Of a DNA stretch of 64,000 nucleotides, positions 7,833-16,402 are shown in pieces. The DNA lies in IMG/VR virus record IMGVR_UViG_3300022660_000050; one strand, 5' to 3'. This stretch comes from a virus (lineage: Duplodnaviria; Heunggongvirae; Uroviricota; Caudoviricetes). Position numbers and translations under genes: made by a program. The stretch's first letter is position 1; each line of letters starts with the position of its first letter. The notes beneath the pieces were generated by a model. It was not told the origin of the DNA. It did not search any database and worked only from the letters and a program-made list of their open reading frames with translations.

Positions 7833-8077
7833 TGAGAGAATTCACTTATGGAGAGCTTAAACAGGGGCTTATTTGCTGTACAGTTTATAGAAATTGTAGT
7901 GGTTGTCCTTTGTATATGGGACCCGAGAAGGGACCACATGAGGAGTGTACCTATCAGCTTATGTCAGCAGCTATGAACTGTATTAATGTTATGGAAAAAG
8001 ACCTTGCTGACGCAAATAAAAGAGCTAACGATTGGGAAGAGTTTGCTCGAAATATGAGTAAAGAGAGGGATATGTAA
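7832..8077 (+). CDS. hypothetical protein (CxxxxxCxxC motif, coiled-coil C-terminus)
   Basis: TAATG-coupled. Confidence 0.6.
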   Translation: MREFTYGELKQGLICCTVYRNCSGCPLYMGPEKGPHEECTYQLMSAAMNCINVMEKDLADANKRANDWEEFARNMSKERDM

Positions 8078-10593: not shown

Positions 10594-11142
10594 GTGTATA
10601 AAGTGAATTCTAGAGTAATATTTCTTGATTATGATGGTGTCGTGAATACTCCTATGTGGAATGAGAAGGGTACCCACTGTAATTACAATTGGCCGAGCCA
10701 CGGAAAAGTAAATAATTTTCAAGCAGTACAGTGGCTATCTGAGGCTTGCCAGAAATTTCATTATGATATTGTAGTTACTTCTACTTGGCGTAGAGATAAA
10801 AACTACAAGGAATGCCTTATTAATGGTGGTCTCAGAGAGGGTATTGAAATTCTTGGTAAGACAGAGCATCTTGAGGTATCAGAAGGTTGGTCTCGCGGTC
10901 ATGAGATTCAGAAATATCTTGACGAGCATCCTGAAATTAACTATTTTATGATCCTAGATGATGAGAATGTGCCAATTAATGACGTACAAAGAGAACATTT
11001 TATTCAGACTGTTGACGCTCATGGCGGCTTTAACGAGGCAGATTTCTTTACTTTTGAGAAACTTTATATGAGAGACGTAGGTCACGGTGGATCGTTTTGG
11101 GACAGAAAAAGTAAAGATTATCGCAAGGAGATTATTATATGA
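10594..11142 (+). CDS. HAD-superfamily phosphatase (RNA-repair 'Swiss army knife' type)
   Basis: IFLDYDGVVN motif I, VVTSTWR motif II, RGHEI, ILDDE motif IV. Confidence 0.8.
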   Translation: MYKVNSRVIFLDYDGVVNTPMWNEKGTHCNYNWPSHGKVNNFQAVQWLSEACQKFHYDIVVTSTWRRDKNYKECLINGGLREGIEILGKTEHLEVSEGWSRGHEIQKYLDEHPEINYFMILDDENVPINDVQREHFIQTVDAHGGFNEADFFTFEKLYMRDVGHGGSFWDRKSKDYRKEIII

Positions 11143-12056: not shown

Positions 12057-12339
12057 TATTAAAAATTTGACTATCGATCTTGTAGACAATACACAAAAGG
12101 AAGACTGGGAAAAAGCAGTATCTCATGCCTTTGAATCAGTATCTTCTGACGCAGAATTTATTAACTTGGTTAAAGTCAAGTTGCCAGATGCTCCAATGGA
12201 TAAAGCTCATTTTATTTTTCGACAACTAAAAGAAGACTTCGCTGAGCATGGATTGACTAATTGTGTATTTGTGCCTATTCACCCGCATGGCATTCAGGAT
12301 ATTACTATTGAAAAGTTGGAGATAGTAAATGAAGACTAA
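12043..12339 (+). CDS. hypothetical protein
   Basis: GAGGA RBS before ATG 12043. Confidence 0.55.
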   Translation: MKKLNIKNLTIDLVDNTQKEDWEKAVSHAFESVSSDAEFINLVKVKLPDAPMDKAHFIFRQLKEDFAEHGLTNCVFVPIHPHGIQDITIEKLEIVNED

Positions 12340-12598
12340 GAAAGAATACAGGTATAATGAAGGCTTTGAAGCCATAAAGAATAATATCTGCGATACGTCT
12401 TACGGTCTTTGCCCTGCACCAATGAACGCTCAGGAAGCTCTTGATATACTTACCAGCTATCTTCTTGGTGATGATTGGTATGTAGTTGATCCCGTGAGTG
12501 TGGAGCAGTGTAATGCCTGTGTAGTAGAGCAGATTCTTGACAAATATTCCAAAAAGTGGAAAAAAGATTGGGATCACTTTGAAAAATACGATCAATAA
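12329..12598 (+). CDS. hypothetical protein
   Basis: GGAG RBS, 89 aa. Confidence 0.6.
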   Translation: MKTKKEYRYNEGFEAIKNNICDTSYGLCPAPMNAQEALDILTSYLLGDDWYVVDPVSVEQCNACVVEQILDKYSKKWKKDWDHFEKYDQ

Positions 12599-12614
12599 AT
12601 CGTATTATATAATA
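12599..12614 (+). promoter_or_regulatory. class-A promoter directly ahead of ncRNA array
   Basis: ATCGTATTATATAATA; TATAAT at 12608-12613 puts the start site near the GG of unit 1. Confidence 0.65.
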
Positions 12615-12722
12615 TCAGGTGCCACGAAGCTTAGCTTGGTCGGATGATTGATTATGGGTCATACCGGGTACCAATAAGATTCAGAAGCAGTGGTAAATGG
12701 AATGCGATAAACAGCCTGATAT
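12612..12722 (+). ncRNA. unknown structured RNA, unit 1 of 4
   Basis: AGGTGCCACGAAGC - 56-nt insert - GCAGTGGTAAATGGAATGCGATAAACAGCCT; closing stem ATATCAGG/CCTGATAT. Confidence 0.75.
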
Positions 12723-12728
12723 GTTTAG

Positions 12729-12871
12729 AGGTGCCACGATGCCAATAACTTGGGAGTGAATACTTCTTGATGAAGTTAGCTCGTTGTTTTACAAGGTAAC
12801 CAATCCGTCAACGAGATAAAGCTCTGTGAGGCGACAAAATGCAGTGGTAAATGGAGTTTGATGAACAGCCT
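12729..12871 (+). ncRNA. unknown structured RNA, unit 2 of 4
   Basis: AGGTGCCACGATGC - 98 nt - GCAGTGGTAAATGGAGTTTGATGAACAGCCT. Confidence 0.75.
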
Positions 12872-12879
12872 GATTTTTG

Positions 12880-13005
12880 GGGTGCCACGAAGCCCTATGG
12901 ATTCAGTTAGTAAGCCGGAACAAAAGCAGCCTAAGAAGCTAGCACGGCCGGGGACTGAAAGACGGGATGCAGAAGCTGTGGTAAATGGAGAGAGTTGAAC
13001 AGCCT
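12880..13005 (+). ncRNA. unknown structured RNA, unit 3 of 4
   Basis: GGGTGCCACGAAGC - 81 nt - GCTGTGGTAAATGGAGAGAGTTGAACAGCCT. Confidence 0.75.
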
Positions 13006-13006
13006 A

Positions 13007-13097
13007 GTATAAAATGTAGGATTAGCTAGCCTTATTTTATACAGCTGAGTCGAATGACGTGGGAAGTTCCCCGTTCACCTTCGCTTGGGTGCTCAGC
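13007..13097 (+). other. two stem-loops in the long linker between units 3 and 4
   Basis: GTATAAAAT/ATTTTATAC (13007-13042) and GCTGAG/CTCAGC enclosing two sub-hairpins (13044-13097). Confidence 0.6.
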
Positions 13098-13111
13098 AAC
13101 AAGCAATTTAA

Positions 13112-13280
13112 TTGTAGGTGCCACGAAGGATCCTTAAGCCGTTAGCTCTAGGGCACTCGAAATGTCCGGATGAATCGGGGTGCAAGCAGGCCGTGTAACA
13201 CGTTTAAACTTAGCGGGGCGGAACCTCTGCGGGATTGTCAAAAGCGCTGTGGTAAATGGAGTGTGATGAACAGCCTACAA
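13112..13280 (+). ncRNA. unknown structured RNA, unit 4 of 4
   Basis: AGGTGCCACGAAGG - 116 nt - GCTGTGGTAAATGGAGTGTGATGAACAGCCT; closing stem TTGTAGG/CCTACAA covaries with unit 1. Confidence 0.75.
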
Positions 13281-13311
13281 AATATTTTATTTGAGGAAGG
13301 AGACCTTATTT

Positions 13312-13478
13312 ATGTACTTCGTTATTTGTGAGGACACTCCACCCAACATTATTGGTTGCTCAGGACGCTGAGTAATGGCCGTGGGCGCAGGCTCGGTATC
13401 GCCGAGGAAGACGAGACATACTGCGATGGAGGTTAGGTGGGAGGCCTCTATAAGGGGTGCTGAGGTAAAGGCACCCCG
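13312..13478 (+). other. multi-stem structured region, possibly overlapping a 19-aa ORF (13312-13371)
   Basis: CTCCACCCAAC pairs with GTTAGGTGGGAG; inner hairpins TTGCTCAG/CTGAGTAA and CTCGG/CCGAG; GGGGTGC/GCACCCC hairpin; AGGAAGGAG RBS before ATG 13312. Confidence 0.4.
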
Positions 13479-13487
13479 CTTCTATAT

Positions 13488-13634
13488 CTACAACTGGCGG
13501 AACAGGCGACACAAATGTAAGTCCTGACTAAAGGCAGAATTAACTGTAAGTCCTTTTGGTGTAGACGCACCGCGGAGAAGCAGCGATGCGCTGACGAGTG
13601 TATCATCTGGGTTCGAATCCCGGGTTGTGGGCCA
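13488..13634 (+). ncRNA. 147-nt tRNA-like RNA with expanded D-loop and degenerate anticodon arm
   Basis: Acceptor CTACAAC/GTTGTGG, G73, CCA; T-arm CTGGG-TTCGAAT-CCCGG; 7-bp variable arm GATGCGC/GTGTATC; about 55 nt inserted in D-loop. Confidence 0.7.
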
Positions 13635-13658
13635 ATTTTATTTTTAGGAGAAAAGCAG

Positions 13659-14213
13659 ATGGTAATTGGACTTGATTTCGACGGAACAATCAATGATATG
13701 CTTATTACTTGGGTTGAGTGGCTTAATAGAAAGCACGGAACTAGTGTACAGTTATCTGATATAGTCGAGTGGGAACTTGAAAAAGTATTTCCAACATTAT
13801 CAAAACGTGAGCTGTTTGAGCCTTTGAACACACCAGAGTATTGGGATGAAGTTTCTATTAAGTCTGGCGCTGTTGAAGTTATTGAAAAGCTTATTTCTGA
13901 AGGTGATGAAGTTTATATAATTACCAGTTCTCATTATAGAACACTTCCGTATAAGTTAGACAAATGCCTTTTTGCTCATTTTCCTTTTTTAAAAAAAGAA
14001 AATATAATTATTACATATAATAAATCACTTATTAATTGTGATCTTCTGCTTGACGACGCTGAACATAACTTAGTAAATTTTAAAGGAATTAAAGTAGTTT
14101 TTGACGCGCCTTACAATAAAAATACTTCTGTTGCAGACTTTAGAGTAGTTTCGTGGGAAGATTTTTATGAACTTATTTCTGAGCTAAAGATTGCTATTCC
14201 TGATATTGTATAA
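13659..14213 (+). CDS. 5'(3')-deoxyribonucleotidase (NT5C, HAD family)
   Basis: IGLDFDGTIND, YIITSS, LLLDDAEHNL, FDAPYN. Confidence 0.88.
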   Translation: MVIGLDFDGTINDMLITWVEWLNRKHGTSVQLSDIVEWELEKVFPTLSKRELFEPLNTPEYWDEVSIKSGAVEVIEKLISEGDEVYIITSSHYRTLPYKLDKCLFAHFPFLKKENIIITYNKSLINCDLLLDDAEHNLVNFKGIKVVFDAPYNKNTSVADFRVVSWEDFYELISELKIAIPDIV

Positions 14214-14246
14214 TATATTATAATAAAAAGTAAAGGAAATATAATA

Positions 14247-15068
14247 ATGGGAAATAATAAAAAAGATTCTCTTGGCGATCGTATGAAAGAAAACTACGAG
14301 AATCGTAGTAAAACTTATCTGACACGACGTACGCCTTGTATTATTCGTTTGGACGGTAAGGCTTTCCATAGCTTTACTAGTAATTTGCAAAAGCCTTACG
14401 ATGAGATTTTTCATAAGGCAATGAACTCTACTTTGCAGTATCTTTGTAAAAATATTCAGGGTTGTAAGTTTGGTTATACGCAGAGTGATGAAATTTCGCT
14501 TCTGTTGACTGACTATGATACTCTGACTACTGATGCCTTCTTTGATTATAACGTGCAAAAGATCTGCTCTGTTGCGGCTTCTATGGCAACAATGATTTTC
14601 AATAAGTCATTTAATATGCTTGTAGATGATTATCATAAATCTGATTTGTGGTGTAATCATTACTTTGAGGAGCCTATTAAAAGATATTCTGAAGCACTAA
14701 AGAAGTGTTGTGATAAGGGTGCGATGTTTGATGCTCGCTGCTTTAATATTCCTGCTTCTGAAGTTGTGAATTGCTTTGTGTGGAGGCAAGAAGATGCTAC
14801 TCGAAACGCAATTCAGATGCTTGGCCAGACTTATTTTAATCATAATGAATTGCATAAAAAGAAGACTGATATGATTCAGGAAATGCTTTGGCAGAAAGGC
14901 ATTAATTTCAATGATATGCCTATTGAGTTTAAGCGTGGTATCTGCTGTTATAAGAGAGCTATCGAAGTAAACGGCGCAGCAAGAACTGAATGGTATATTG
15001 ACAAAGAGTGTCCTATTTTTACACAGGACCGAAACTATATTGAAAGATTTCTTCCTAAGGAGAACTAA
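14247..15068 (+). CDS. tRNA(His) guanylyltransferase / Thg1-like protein
   Basis: LGDRMK..YE, IRLDGKAFHSFT, YTQSDEISL, FDARCF, WRQEDATRN. Confidence 0.93.
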   Translation: MGNNKKDSLGDRMKENYENRSKTYLTRRTPCIIRLDGKAFHSFTSNLQKPYDEIFHKAMNSTLQYLCKNIQGCKFGYTQSDEISLLLTDYDTLTTDAFFDYNVQKICSVAASMATMIFNKSFNMLVDDYHKSDLWCNHYFEEPIKRYSEALKKCCDKGAMFDARCFNIPASEVVNCFVWRQEDATRNAIQMLGQTYFNHNELHKKKTDMIQEMLWQKGINFNDMPIEFKRGICCYKRAIEVNGAARTEWYIDKECPIFTQDRNYIERFLPKEN

Positions 15069-15623
15069 ATGACAAATAGAGAAAGATTTATTTCACTTTG
15101 TACGTTTAATCGTACAGGCAAAGCAGAACTTTTTGAATGGCTCGAGAGTAGTGATTTCTTTACTGCACCGGCGAGTGCAAAGTATCATGGCTCTTATGAA
15201 GGTGGGCTTGTAGAGCACTCTTTGAACGTATACGACGCCCTTGTAAAGCTACTTACAATTTATCCTGAGATTCAGGTATCTGAAGAAAGCGTTGCTATCG
15301 TAGCTCTTTTCCATGATCTTTGTAAAGTAAATATGTATGAGAAAGAGACCCGCTACCGTAAGGATGAAAACGGTAAGTGGGAGCCTTACGAGGCTTATAC
15401 TCATAATGAAAAGCTACATTATGGCGGACACGGGAGTAAGTCAGTATTTATTCTTCAGAACTTTATTAAGCTGACTCCTGAAGAAGCAGTTGCTATTAAT
15501 TGCCATATGGGCTCTTGGGAAGATAACCCTAATATCGGACCTGCTTTTGAGCATTGTCCTTTAGCTTGGCTTCTTCACGTTGCAGATGAGAGTGCAACCT
15601 TTATTACGGAGGCAAAGAGATGA
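15069..15623 (+). CDS. HD-domain phosphohydrolase
   Basis: APASAKYHG..EGGLVEHSLNV, LFHDLCK, GHG, CHMG, HVAD. Confidence 0.88.
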   Translation: MTNRERFISLCTFNRTGKAELFEWLESSDFFTAPASAKYHGSYEGGLVEHSLNVYDALVKLLTIYPEIQVSEESVAIVALFHDLCKVNMYEKETRYRKDENGKWEPYEAYTHNEKLHYGGHGSKSVFILQNFIKLTPEEAVAINCHMGSWEDNPNIGPAFEHCPLAWLLHVADESATFITEAKR

Positions 15624-16402
15624 AATTTTTCTGCGTTTCAGATATACATTCTTATTACTCTGCACTGAAGAAAGCTTTAGATGAGGCCGGCTTTGACCGA
15701 AATAATCCAGAGCATTGGTTAATTTCTTGCGGTGATGCTTTTGATAGAGGCCATGAGAGCGAAGAAGTACTTCATTTTCTCATGTCACTTGAAAGAAAGA
15801 TTCTCGTAAAAGGTAATCATGACCTTCTACTTGATGACCTTTGTATGAGAGAATTTCCTTATAGTCATGACTTTTCTAACGGTACTACTCGTACCGTAAA
15901 TGACATTGGCGGTGCGGGAGAAGGCTACCCTTTTGATGACTGCTGTAGAAATACTTGGAATAGAACAGCCGCCTATCGTGCTTCACTTGTAAACTATTTT
16001 GAAACTGAGAATTATATATTTGTACATAGTTGGATTCCTACTATTACGGAAGGTGCTAGTAAGCCTTGGCATACGCTTAATAAGTATTATGAATATAAGG
16101 AAGACTGGCGTGAGGCTACAAGAAATGAGTGGGAAGAAGCTATGTGGGGAAATCCGTTCTTTAAGGCTCAGGACGGTATGAATAGGACCGGTAAATATAT
16201 TGTATTTGGTCATTGGCATTGCTCTTTGGGACACTTAATTAGCAGCGACGGAGAGCTTAGTGAGTTCGGCGAAAATGCTTGCTGGGACATTTACAAAAAT
16301 GATGACTGGAAAATTATCGGAATTGATAAGTGCACAGCTCATACAGGAAAAGTAAATGTTTTGGTAATTGAAGATAATTTTTTAAATAAGGAGACTGACT
16401 AA
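15620..16402 (+). CDS. calcineurin-like metallophosphoesterase
   Basis: SDIHS, GDAFDRG, GNHD, FVH, FGHWH. Confidence 0.9.
   Translation: MKFFCVSDIHSYYSALKKALDEAGFDRNNPEHWLISCGDAFDRGHESEEVLHFLMSLERKILVKGNHDLLLDDLCMREFPYSHDFSNGTTRTVNDIGGAGEGYPFDDCCRNTWNRTAAYRASLVNYFETENYIFVHSWIPTITEGASKPWHTLNKYYEYKEDWREATRNEWEEAMWGNPFFKAQDGMNRTGKYIVFGHWHCSLGHLISSDGELSEFGENACWDIYKNDDWKIIGIDKCTAHTGKVNVLVIEDNFLNKETD

What the first reader, a model, noticed from the sequence alone, without database searches (positions are those of the whole stretch)
12612..13280. Array of four unknown RNAs: conserved scaffold with variable structured inserts
Each unit is RGGTGCCACGAWG(C/G), then an insert of 56, 98, 81 or 116 nt, then an exactly 31-nt block GCWGTGGTAAATGGA-N4-G-N-T-N-AACAGCCT (24 of 31 positions invariant). 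GCCAC pairs with GTGGT. The ends pair (RGG/CCT), with compensatory extensions ATATCAGG/CCTGATAT in unit 1 and TTGTAGG/CCTACAA in unit 4. The stem opening the insert also covaries (CTTA/TAAG, GCC/GGC, CCC/GGG, GATCC/GGATT), followed by a conserved CARAA linker. A class-A promoter starts at unit 1; linkers are 11, 8 and 110 nt. I cannot match it to CRISPR, TIGR, type III antitoxin, riboswitch or ribozyme consensus sequences I know. A fixed core with swappable domains suggests a guide/adaptor RNA family, a new ribozyme, or decoys for host defence proteins (inference).
Basis: partly seen in the sequence, partly recalled or inferred. Interest (0 to 1): 0.9.

Follow-up and report, generated by a model that had tools for sequence, protein, structure and literature searches.

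The report
New structured RNA family in phage tRNA arrays
The four repeats are real copies of a previously uncatalogued, strongly conserved small structured RNA that large gut and rumen phages carry beside their tRNA genes; its structure is well supported but its function is still unknown.

Summary
Window 12612-13281 (+) holds four units with an exact 5' GGUGCCACGAWG and an exact 31-nt 3' block (0 chance matches expected). Inserts are 56, 98, 81 and 116 nt.

It is a real family. I collected 119 distinct units from IMG/VR phage contigs and phage-like MAG contigs. Covariation supports the closing stem P1 and the helix P2 (GCYAC/GURGU, C-G swapping with U-A). The 20-nt joining strand carries a T-loop-like pentanucleotide, U-[G/U]-N-R-A.

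Rfam 15 gives no hit even at E<=10. ARAGORN calls no tRNA. No paper in the library holds the motif strings.

Context: 95 of 127 units lie within 1 kb of a tRNA gene, and every tRNA found near a unit is on its strand. Most phages carry one copy; four in tandem is unusual. Inserts are hypervariable (96 sequence clusters among 116).

A Ro60-like neighbour gene suggested Y RNAs. The link failed both ways: 11 of 48 unit-bearing phages carry such a gene, and 3 of 80 Ro60-like loci carry a unit.

Best reading: stable small RNAs released along with tRNAs, in which a conserved three-way-junction core is the recognition module and a variable arm is the payload. A new ribozyme is not excluded.

The scan had already noted the same array on other DNA (e1-5436068).

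The parts
12579..12608 (+). sigma-70-like promoter match (TTGAAA-18-TATTAT) just upstream of unit 1
   Evidence: It is a consensus match only. The region has 2 such matches against 2.7 expected, so support is weak.
12612..12722 (+). Unit 1. P1 is 12612-12619 with 12715-12722. The 5' motif is 12618-12629. The insert is 12631-12686. The 3' block is 12687-12717. The T-loop-like UGCGA is 12703-12707.
   Evidence: Model R1 scores 82 bits, E 9e-21. Sequence read.
12724..12876 (+). Unit 2. The 5' motif is 12730-12741 (GAUG variant). The insert is 12743-12840. The 3' block is 12841-12871. P1 is weak, about 3 bp.
   Evidence: R1 scores 52.9 bits, E 4e-12 at G000:112593-112745(-), which maps to this window range. 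The default-filter search of the window missed it. Its insert type recurs in L014.
12875..13010 (+). Unit 3. The 5' motif is 12881-12892. The insert is 12894-12974. The 3' block is 12975-13005. It carries the swapped A14...U18 variant of the mini-hairpin.
   Evidence: R1 scores 63.8 bits. Its orthologue in the sister phage (L039 8982-9118) has a fully compensated P1, GUGAG/CUCAC.
13006..13115 (+). 110-nt linker holding two hairpins (UAUAAAAU.../...AUUUUAUA and GCUGAG.../...CUCAGC). It is not a unit.
   Evidence: Predicted fold of -35 kcal/mol, and 32 nt conserved in the sister phage. R1 gives no hit.
13111..13281 (+). Unit 4. P1 is 13112-13118 with 13274-13280. The 5' motif is 13117-13128. The insert is 13130-13245. 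The 3' block is 13246-13276.
   Evidence: R1 scores 63.2 bits. The insert type is conserved in four other contigs (L191, L019, L008, L026).
13282..13658 (+). More ORF-free, GC-richer structured RNA on the same strand. It includes a tRNA-like RNA (about 13488-13634) with a 7-bp acceptor stem, the T-arm CUGGG-UUCGAAU-CCCGG and GCCA.
Evidence: Sequence and fold. Part is conserved in the sister phage. ARAGORN and Rfam do not call it.
12329..12598 (+). Upstream gene for a Tad8-like protein (Thoeris inhibitor family). It is syntenic with the units in the sister phages.
   Evidence: Pfam PF25189, E 4.5e-23. Synteny with L039 and L010.
14247..15068 (+). Thg1-like 3'-5' nucleotidyltransferase (tRNA 5'-end repair). 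It sits in a run of RNA-repair-type genes: NT5C at 13659-14213, HD at 15069-15623, Metallophos at 15620-16402 and HAD_SAK_2 at 10594-11142.
   Evidence: Thg1 is present in 18 of 48 unit-bearing phage records. This is context, not a proven partner.

Best explanation
SHOWN.
- The four repeats belong to a previously uncatalogued family of independently folding small RNAs. With flanks they span about 83-190 nt. The family is found in large phages of gut and rumen microbiomes.
- Each unit is a junction of three elements.
  - P1 is a closing stem made from the unit's two ends: NNN-RG with CY-NNN, mostly 5-9 bp.
  - A single invariant U links P1 to P2.
  - P2 is GCYAC/GURGU. It continues through a purine-rich internal loop (GAAG opposite N-A-G-C-W, with a G-C pair inside) into a hypervariable structured arm.
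  - A 20-nt invariant joining strand, AAAUGGA-R-U-K-N-R-A-U-R-AACA, contains a 2-bp mini-hairpin. Its U-[G/U]-N-R-A fits the T-loop pentanucleotide.
- Units sit in or near phage tRNA arrays, always on the tRNA strand and often at tRNA-like spacing.

INFERRED (about 0.55 for this general picture).
- The units are transcribed with, or like, tRNAs.
- They are released as P1-clamped stable RNAs when the tRNA-processing nucleases cut the neighbouring tRNAs and trim back.
- The conserved core is a compact tertiary module recognised by a conserved partner, probably a host one.
- The variable arm is the diversifying payload.

MORE SPECULATIVE (about 0.3).
- The partner belongs to tRNA handling or tRNA damage and repair.
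- The RNA then acts as a modular tRNA-mimicking adaptor or decoy in the phage-host conflict over tRNAs. This is the same logic as Y RNAs, but it is not their family.
For: Family and structure:
- Pattern scans found the same 5' and 3' scaffold on 28 and then 112 IMG/VR stretches, plus 26 units on phage-like MAG contigs. That gives 119 distinct units.
- P1 pairs covary with all four Watson-Crick types at 90-97% pairing. The P2 Y:R pair is C-G in 47 units and U-A in 65.
- On alignments A1 and A2, 93% and 92% of cells are paired, against 78% and 77% in shuffles. Covariation scores are 0.43 and 0.40 against 0.15. 0 of 500 shuffles reach these values, and slid registers collapse to 23-56%.
- Model R1 finds units at E 1e-12 to 1e-22, and divergent subtypes that keep GGUGC and UAAAUGGA..GA..AACAGCC.
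- T-loop fit: position 14 is U in 110 of 119; position 15 is G in 75 and U in 44; position 17 is G in 100 and A in 19; position 18 is A in 115. Positions 13 and 20 covary without pairing (G..G 81, A..A 29).

Context:
- 95 of 127 units lie within 1 kb of a tRNA gene and 21 within 20 nt. All 44 within 200 nt are co-oriented with it.
- All 48 sampled records have 1-7 units.
- RNA-repair-type genes flank the window array. Thg1-like genes occur in 18 of 48 records, and Ro60-like genes in 11 of 48.

Inserts:
- 96 sequence clusters among 116 inserts, with no shared k-mer.
- Mean folding z-score is -0.9.
- Some insert types are conserved across phages.
Against: - Processing into unit-length RNAs is therefore inferred only from gene arrangement.
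- No universal protein partner was found near the units. Thg1-like and Ro60-like genes are each absent from most unit-bearing phages.
- The window's own array lies 10.6 kb from the nearest tRNA gene that ARAGORN calls.
- There is no CCA and no conserved nucleotide after P1 that would mark an RNase P or RNase Z substrate.
- About 45 near-invariant nucleotides is more than a simple protein-binding site needs. That fits a ribozyme or ligand aptamer at least as well.
- Conservation of the 3' block is partly inflated, because the scans were seeded with it. The 5' motif was not required in the scan.
Confidence: 0.5

Rival explanations
1. A new class of ribozyme. One form would be self-cleaving, for instance at the invariant single-nucleotide junction GG-U-GC between P1 and P2, cutting units and neighbouring tRNAs out of the precursor. 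The other form would act in trans on tRNA precursors.
For: - About 45 near-invariant nucleotides are concentrated in a multi-helix junction, with variable peripheral helices.
- The junction topology resembles a type III hammerhead: 1-nt, 7-nt and GAA-containing strands, and possible tandem G-A pairs (reading).
- Units occur in tandem and abut tRNAs.
- There is a precedent: HDV-like theta ribozymes lie next to tRNAs in gut phages (PMC10879173).
Against: - No ribozyme family matches, even at E<=10.
- The core differs from CUGANGA at 4 of 7 positions and has extra nucleotides before the third helix.
- The position relative to tRNAs is not fixed: 29 units are upstream of the nearest tRNA and 15 downstream, at 5-200 nt.
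- Some insert types are conserved across phages, which suggests the arm matters beyond folding.
- No biochemical test was possible.
Confidence: 0.13
2. A Y-RNA-type partner of a Ro60-like protein. The terminal stem with ACGAAG would bind the Ro60-like ring, and the variable module would tether an effector such as an exoribonuclease.
For: - Architecture and size resemble Y RNAs: a terminal stem, a variable module and several paralogues.
- YACGAAG matches 6 of 7 positions of the bacterial Y RNA motif GNCGAAN0-1G (PMC4201824).
- The neighbouring DUF2828+DUF7788 protein is Ro60-like. Its 13 best Foldseek matches are all full-length Ro60/TROVE structures, with E from 5e-8 to 3e-4.
- In 8 of the 10 phage records that hold both, the gene lies within 0.8-6 kb of a unit. 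In all 10 it is on the unit's strand.
Against: - Only 11 of 48 unit-bearing records carry any Ro60-like or TROVE gene. The window's own genome has none.
- Only 3 of 80 Ro60-like loci hold a unit within 8 kb.
- Six of the eight Ro60-like loci scanned instead carry long (114-144 nt) tRNA-model hits, most of them within 1.3 kb upstream of the gene. These look like YrlA-type Y RNAs.
- The most conserved part, the 3' block, has no counterpart in Y RNAs.
Confidence: 0.08
3. A tRNA-binding RNA. The T-loop-like module would stack on the tRNA elbow and the invariant single-stranded UGGA would pair with the 3' NCCA end, as in T-box leaders and RNase P. The RNA would then hold, protect or present tRNAs.
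For: - The pentanucleotide fits the T-loop pattern and the UG..A core described for elbow-binding modules (PMC3664808).
- UGGA is invariant in 119 of 119 units.
- The family is strictly associated with tRNA genes.
Against: - Only one clear T-loop is present. No second AG..A T-loop was found in the core, so the double T-loop module is not met.
- UGGA with a fixed A would favour a U discriminator only.
- The idea rests on sequence resemblance alone.
Confidence: 0.08
4. A ligand-binding aptamer used as a sponge, for example for an immune signalling nucleotide. In this phage it would be expressed in tandem downstream of a Tad8-like Thoeris inhibitor gene.
For: - The conserved junction with a variable peripheral stem looks like a riboswitch aptamer.
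- A Tad8-like gene lies directly upstream in the window and in two relatives.
Against: - There is no expression platform and no consistent downstream gene.
- The Tad8 neighbour is seen only in this small clade. The general context is tRNA arrays.
- No riboswitch family matches.
Confidence: 0.04
5. A repeat-spacer or guide-RNA array (CRISPR-, TIGR- or ToxI-like), or a mobile-element RNA such as a TnpB omega RNA.
For: - The window shows a regular alternation of conserved and variable segments.
- TnpB genes lie near units in 4 locus groups.
Against: - 29 of 48 phages have a single unit.
- Each unit closes on itself through covarying stems.
- Inserts range from 37 to about 200 nt and are structured.
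- No insert has an above-chance complement in the phage's own genome.
- The position and orientation of TnpB relative to the units are inconsistent.
Confidence: 0.02

Closest known systems
Y RNAs, including bacterial and phage YrlA/YrlB (partners of Ro60/Rsr)
   Same: - Both are modular small RNAs about 80-190 nt long.
- The 5' and 3' ends pair into a stem that carries a conserved site. ACGAAG here compares with GNCGAAN0-1G there.
- The inner module is variable.
- Genomes can hold several paralogues on one strand, near tRNA and RNA-repair genes.
- Some carrier phages encode a Ro60-like protein a few kb away.
   Different: - The link to Ro60-like genes fails in both directions (11 of 48 and 3 of 80).
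- There is no tRNA-like T-arm or D-arm domain.
- The dominant conserved element is a 31-nt 3' block with no Y RNA counterpart.
- No Rfam Y RNA family matches.
Phage T4 stable RNAs, species 1 and 2 (rnaC, rnaD), in the T4 tRNA cluster
   Same: Both are small stable RNAs of unknown function, encoded on the tRNA strand at tRNA-like spacing in a phage tRNA cluster. Homing endonuclease genes lie nearby in both.
   Different: - There is no sequence or motif similarity.
- T4 rnaC has a tRNA-type T-arm. That resembles the separate tRNA-like RNA at 13488-13634, not the units.
ROOL and GOLLD large ornate RNAs
   Same: Both are structured non-coding RNAs of unknown function that are typical of phages and prophages, often lie near tRNA genes, and include rumen-derived sequences.
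   Different: ROOL and GOLLD are about 600-800 nt long, have a different architecture and are in Rfam. The window has no match to them.
Self-cleaving ribozymes beside phage tRNAs (theta/HDV-like) and type III hammerheads
   Same: Both occupy the same genomic niche, gut-phage tRNA clusters. Both have a junction core with variable peripheral helices. The units have a hammerhead-like order of three helices, with a 1-nt strand and a GAA-containing strand.
   Different: - The core sequence does not match, and no nested double pseudoknot is present.
- No Rfam ribozyme family hits.
- The distance to the tRNA end is not fixed.
- Cleavage is untested.
T-loop modules of T-box Stem I, RNase P and the L1 stalk
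   Same: The units hold an invariant pentanucleotide that fits U-[G/U]-N-R-A, and a single-stranded UGGN-like UGGA.
   Different: Only one T-loop is recognisable and no head-to-tail pair was found. There is no specifier, antiterminator or catalytic domain.

Membership tests
Any Rfam 15 family (4227 models) | A covariance-model match at the gathering score, or at least at E<=10 | tested here: not met
   The only gathering-score hits in the window are six tRNAs at 592-2037. Region 12400-13700 gives no match at E<=10.
tRNA | A cloverleaf with D, anticodon and T arms that ARAGORN or RF00005 detects | tested here: not met
   ARAGORN and RF00005 call nothing at 12612-13281. Only about 20 nt lie between P2 and the 3' strand of P1, which leaves no room for both an anticodon arm and a T arm.
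Y RNA | Encoded within a few kb of a Ro60/Rsr gene on the same strand | tested here: not met
   The own genome has no TROVE, DUF2828 or DUF7788 gene. 11 of 48 carrier phages have such a gene. 3 of 80 Ro60-like loci hold a unit.
Y RNA | A terminal stem carrying the Ro-binding motif (GGUCCGA, or GNCGAAN0-1G) | tested here: inconclusive
   YACGAAG matches 6 of 7 positions, with a pyrimidine in place of the first G (motif from PMC4201824). A match this short is easily due to chance.
Y RNA | Bound by Ro60/Rsr | not testable with these tools
   This needs a pull-down or gel shift.
Hammerhead ribozyme | A three-way junction with CUGANGA and GAAA core strands and an NUH cleavage site | tested here: not met
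   No hammerhead model hits. By reading the sequence, the 7-nt strand is AAAUGGA, which shares only the final GA, and three extra nucleotides precede the third helix.
HDV-like (theta) ribozyme | A nested double pseudoknot in which the 5' end forms P1 with an internal strand | tested here: not met
   The 5' end pairs with the 3' end (P1 covariation). No HDV-type Rfam family hits.
Self-cleaving ribozyme (any class) | Site-specific self-scission | not testable with these tools
CRISPR, TIGR or ToxI-type repeat arrays | Many tandem repeats that separate short unstructured spacers or guides, with the function tied to the array | tested here: not met
   29 of 48 phages carry one unit. Units close on themselves. 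Inserts run from 37 to about 200 nt and are structured.
[quoted passage not shown] | Two interdigitated pentanucleotide T-loops with AG..A and UG..A cores | tested here: inconclusive
   One U-[G/U]-N-R-A pentanucleotide is present and conserved. A second AG..A T-loop was not found by inspection.

The most novel reading that the evidence does not exclude
The invariant junction core is the active site of a new ribozyme class that lives in phage tRNA arrays. It would either cut itself at the GG-U-GC junction or act in trans on tRNA precursors or tRNA 3' ends. The invariant UGGA would pair with NCCA, and the T-loop would dock on the tRNA elbow. The hypervariable arm would act as a specificity or scaffold domain.
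Probability: 0.12. Interest if true: 0.95.

Novelty: categorically new. Interest (0 to 1): 0.78.

Why it matters
- It adds a widespread, deeply conserved RNA fold to the few non-tRNA RNAs known from phage tRNA clusters (T4 species 1 and 2, ROOL, GOLLD, theta ribozymes). None of those except the ribozymes has an understood function.
- About 45 near-invariant nucleotides persist across phages whose flanking genes are unrelated. That points to catalysis, to ligand binding, or to contact with a very conserved host machine.
- The family offers a compact (about 85-110 nt) object that can be tested directly for self-cleavage, tRNA binding or protein partners.
- If the core is a stable P1-clamped scaffold that tolerates 37-200-nt inserts, it is also a natural RNA display scaffold.

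Tried and rejected
- **Similarity searches.** BLAST of the region and of the 3' block against 50,697 cultured-phage records found no homologue, so no isolate carrying the RNA is known.
- **Literature.** Searching for the motif strings found only unrelated primer or aptamer hits.
- **T4 rnaC and rnaD.** They share no motif with the units.
- **Ro60/Y RNA lead.**
  - The single-sequence AlphaFold model of the DUF2828 protein was unusable (pLDDT 40). The model built from an alignment was good (pLDDT 79) and is Ro60-like.
  - The RNA-protein link then failed.
- **RtcB and TROVE.** Both are absent from the own genome.
- **Neighbour-gene clustering over all loci.** No universal partner emerged. The recurrent neighbours (GIY-YIG homing endonucleases, TnpB, isochorismatase, Thg1-like, Metallophos) are ordinary residents of the tRNA-array region, with inconsistent spacing.
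- **Shared motifs in the inserts.** None was found.
- **Antisense targets of the four inserts in the phage's own genome.** The best matches are 11-13 nt, equal to shuffled controls. Host genomes could not be tested because the host is unknown.
- **Known ribozyme cores.**
  - Hairpin, twister, pistol and hammerhead cores were compared from memory.
  - Only short coincidences were seen (GUGGUA, GGUGC, UAAA..GGAG). None was supported by Rfam.
- **SRP RNA.** It shares GAAGCAG with the units, but no SRP model hits.
- **Context of MAG hits without tRNAs (L164).** Neighbours are almost all ORFans. This looks phage-like, not bacterial core genome.
Full report
**1. The observation**

Reading window 12300-13600 shows four units on the + strand.
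- Each starts with RGGTGCCACGAWG(C/G) and ends with GCWGTGGTAAATGGA-N4-G-N-T-N-AACAGCCT.
- The 3' pattern occurs four times exactly, against 0.00 expected in shuffles. The 5' 12-mer occurs four times exactly, and only there.
- The whole 220-kb virus record (CheckV 96% complete) holds no other copy.
- Region 12599-13658 has no convincing ORF.

**2. It is a family, not a local repeat**

Scanning IMG/VR with the 3' block gave 28 stretches, and 112 with a looser pattern.
- In these scans the 5' motif was not required. It is nevertheless present 37-200 nt upstream in nearly every true hit.
- A scan of one genome per prokaryotic species found 26 more units.
  - All are on MAG contigs from Clostridia-type gut and rumen bins (sheep, goat, water deer, rabbit, mouse, human).
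  - These contigs carry irregular tRNA arrays or ORFan genes, so they look like large phages.
- In total I collected 119 distinct units.
- A covariance model (R1) built from 45 diverse units finds the window's units at 53-82 bits.
- R1 finds 117 units in 92 loci. These include divergent subtypes that keep only GGUGC at the 5' end and U(U)AAAUGGA-R-U-K-N-R-A-N-R-AAC-AGCC at the 3' end.
- No cultured phage in INPHARED has the motif.

**3. Structure**

Column statistics and mutual information give the following elements.
- **P1.**
  - Three flank nucleotides plus R-G pair with C-Y plus three flank nucleotides.
  - Pairing is 90-97% and all four Watson-Crick types are used. G-C changes to A-U at the R:Y position.
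  - Length runs from 2 to 13 bp, with a mode of 5.
- **Linker.** A single invariant U joins P1 to P2.
- **P2.** GCYAC pairs with GURGU. The Y:R pair is C-G in 47 units and U-A in 65.
- **Internal loop.**
  - After a bulged W, the G of GAAG pairs with the C of AGC.
  - The remaining A-A-G faces G-A-N, and A:A changes to U:U in three cases.
  - Then a C-G pair opens the variable arm.
- **Joining strand.**
  - The 20 nt between P2 and P1 are almost invariant.
  - They contain a mini-hairpin (R13-U19 and U14-A18, which swaps to A14-U18 in a few units, including unit 3).
  - Positions 13 and 20 covary without pairing (G..G in 81 units, A..A in 29).

On the 45-sequence alignment, 93% of cells pair against 78% in shuffles. 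The covariation score is 0.43 against 0.15. 0 of 500 shuffles reach these values, and slid registers fall to 23-56%. The 117-sequence alignment gives the same picture.

Positions 14-18 read U-[G/U]-N-R-A. To my knowledge this is the T-loop pentanucleotide signature. It matches the 'UG..A' core described for elbow-binding modules (PMC3664808). I found only one such loop.

A helix at the base of the insert is enriched but not universal (34% against 15% in controls).

**4. The inserts**

- They are hypervariable: 96 sequence clusters among 116 inserts, with no shared k-mer.
- They are moderately structured, with a mean z-score of -0.9 over 110 inserts.
- Some types are conserved between phages.
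  - Unit 1 resembles L010, unit 2 resembles L014, and unit 3 resembles L039 with a fully compensated P1.
  - The unit 4 type recurs in four other contigs, with conserved blocks.
- The sister phage (221 kb) has a syntenic Tad8-like gene followed by five to six units, of which only some are orthologous. The arrays therefore turn over.
- The four inserts have no complement in the phage's own genome beyond chance.

**5. Context**

- Of 127 units, 95 lie within 1 kb of a tRNA gene and 21 within 20 nt. Every tRNA gene found near a unit is on the same strand.
- The spacing equals that between tRNAs. No CCA or other conserved base follows P1.
- Among 48 carrier records, 29 have one unit, 10 have two, 6 have three, and single records have four, six and seven. 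The window's four in tandem is therefore unusual.
- The window array has a sigma-70-like match just upstream. Further structured RNA follows it, including a tRNA-like RNA with a canonical T-arm and CCA.
- The flanking genes are a Tad8-like protein, an NT5C nucleotidase, a Thg1-like 3'-5' polymerase, an HD hydrolase, a Metallophos phosphoesterase and a HAD_SAK_2 domain protein. This is an RNA-repair flavour.

**6. Testing the Y RNA idea**

Clustering all neighbour ORFs showed a DUF2828+DUF7788 protein near units in seven independent locus groups, always on the same strand.
- With an alignment, AlphaFold gave pLDDT 79.
- The 13 best Foldseek matches are all full-length Ro60/TROVE structures, including a Thermus phage Ro60. 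The protein is therefore Ro60-like.
- Bacterial Y RNAs carry GNCGAAN0-1G near the 5' end and lie within 4 kb of the Ro60 gene on the same strand (PMC4201824). The units carry YACGAAG.

The link nevertheless fails.
- Only 10 of 48 carrier records have this protein, and one more has a TROVE protein.
- The window's genome has none by four family or profile searches and one protein search.
- Of 80 Ro60-like loci fetched without regard to the RNA, only 3 hold a unit within 8 kb.
- In six of the eight Ro60-like loci scanned, long (114-144 nt) tRNA-model hits are present, most of them within 1.3 kb upstream of the gene. These are probably YrlA-type Y RNAs.

The units and the Ro60-like gene therefore merely share the tRNA and RNA-metabolism neighbourhood. 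The same holds for Thg1-like genes: 18 of 48 records carry one, at distances from 0.4 to more than 50 kb.

**7. What it is not**

- It matches no Rfam family at E<=10, and it is not a tRNA.
- It is not a CRISPR, TIGR or ToxI-type array: single copies predominate and each unit closes on itself.
- It is not a TnpB-associated RNA, because placement relative to TnpB is inconsistent.
- The three-helix order resembles a type III hammerhead, but the core strands differ.
- The resemblances to hairpin, twister, pistol and SRP sequences that I recalled are short, and the models do not support them.

**8. Most likely mechanism**

Shown: a conserved three-element junction with a variable arm, residing co-oriented in tRNA arrays.

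Inferred:
- The units are made like tRNAs and released as stable P1-clamped RNAs when the neighbouring tRNAs are processed.
- The invariant core is a tertiary module recognised by a conserved partner, probably a host one.
- The arm diversifies.

I put about 0.55 on this general picture. I put about 0.3 on the more specific idea of a tRNA-mimicking adaptor or decoy in the conflict over tRNAs.

Alternatives:

| Reading | Probability |
|---|---|
| New ribozyme | about 0.13 |
| True Ro60 partner | about 0.08 |
| tRNA binder | about 0.08 |
| Ligand sponge | about 0.04 |

**9. Novelty**

- No curated family, paper string match or cultured-phage homologue was found.
- An earlier first-stage note of this scan (e1-5436068) saw the same array on other DNA, which is not independent evidence.
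- I class it as a new RNA family of unknown function, in a niche where unexplained RNAs are already known.

Noticed in passing
window 13488-13634 (+): A tRNA-like RNA lies just downstream of the array. It has a 7-bp acceptor stem (CUACAAC/GUUGUGG), the T-arm CUGGG-UUCGAAU-CCCGG and a 3' GCCA, but long insertions where the D and anticodon arms should be. ARAGORN and Rfam do not call it. It recalls T4 species 1 RNA (rnaC), which also ends in a tRNA-type T-arm.
   Followed up: partly
L212 7154-7921, L207 7196-7766, L215 6758-7264, L206 7468-7590 (upstream of the Ro60-like genes that start at 8001): Tandem hits to the tRNA model that are 114-144 nt long lie directly upstream of DUF2828+DUF7788 (Ro60-like) genes on the same strand. 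They are probably YrlA-type, tRNA-mimicking Y RNAs of a large, unannotated phage Ro60-like family, which has more than 7900 relatives in the protein database.
   Followed up: partly
L058:579-2270(-) and relatives (alignment A3): The Pfam domain pair DUF2828+DUF7788 folds as a full-length Ro60: a helical-repeat ring plus a vWA domain whose DGSGS sequence looks like a MIDAS motif. The best structural matches are Ro60/TROVE entries, including Thermus phage phiLo Ro60.
   Followed up: yes
window 10594-11142 and 13659-16402: A cluster of genes with an RNA/tRNA-repair flavour surrounds the RNA island: a HAD_SAK_2 domain protein, an NT5C nucleotidase, a Thg1-like 3'-5' nucleotidyltransferase, an HD hydrolase and a Metallophos phosphoesterase with a weak match to the N-terminal part of an RNA ligase family.
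   Followed up: partly
window 12329-12598 (+): An 89-aa protein matches Tad8, a type II Thoeris inhibitor (E 4.5e-23). It lies directly upstream of the RNA array, and this arrangement is syntenic in the sister phages (L039, L010).
   Followed up: no
window 13006-13115 (+): The 110-nt linker between units 3 and 4 folds into two strong hairpins. Part of it (32 nt) is conserved in the sister phage. It may be another small RNA or a decayed unit.
   Followed up: partly
L117:8364-8446(-), L018:6896-6984(-), L069:473-585(-): A divergent subtype lacks GAAG. It reads GGUGCAAC-AGUUCAAAU...GAGUUAAAUGGAGUUUGAGGAACAGCC. Its UCAAA segment just inside P2 can pair with the UUUGA of the T-loop-like region, which would be a pseudoknot. 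There are too few sequences to test covariation.
   Followed up: partly
loci L019, L038, L039, L052, L058, L094 and L026, L028, L044, L057, L084: GIY-YIG/NUMOD homing endonuclease genes and IS605-type TnpB genes recur within a few kb of the units, inside the tRNA arrays. T4 shows the same arrangement, with segB in its tRNA cluster.
   Followed up: partly
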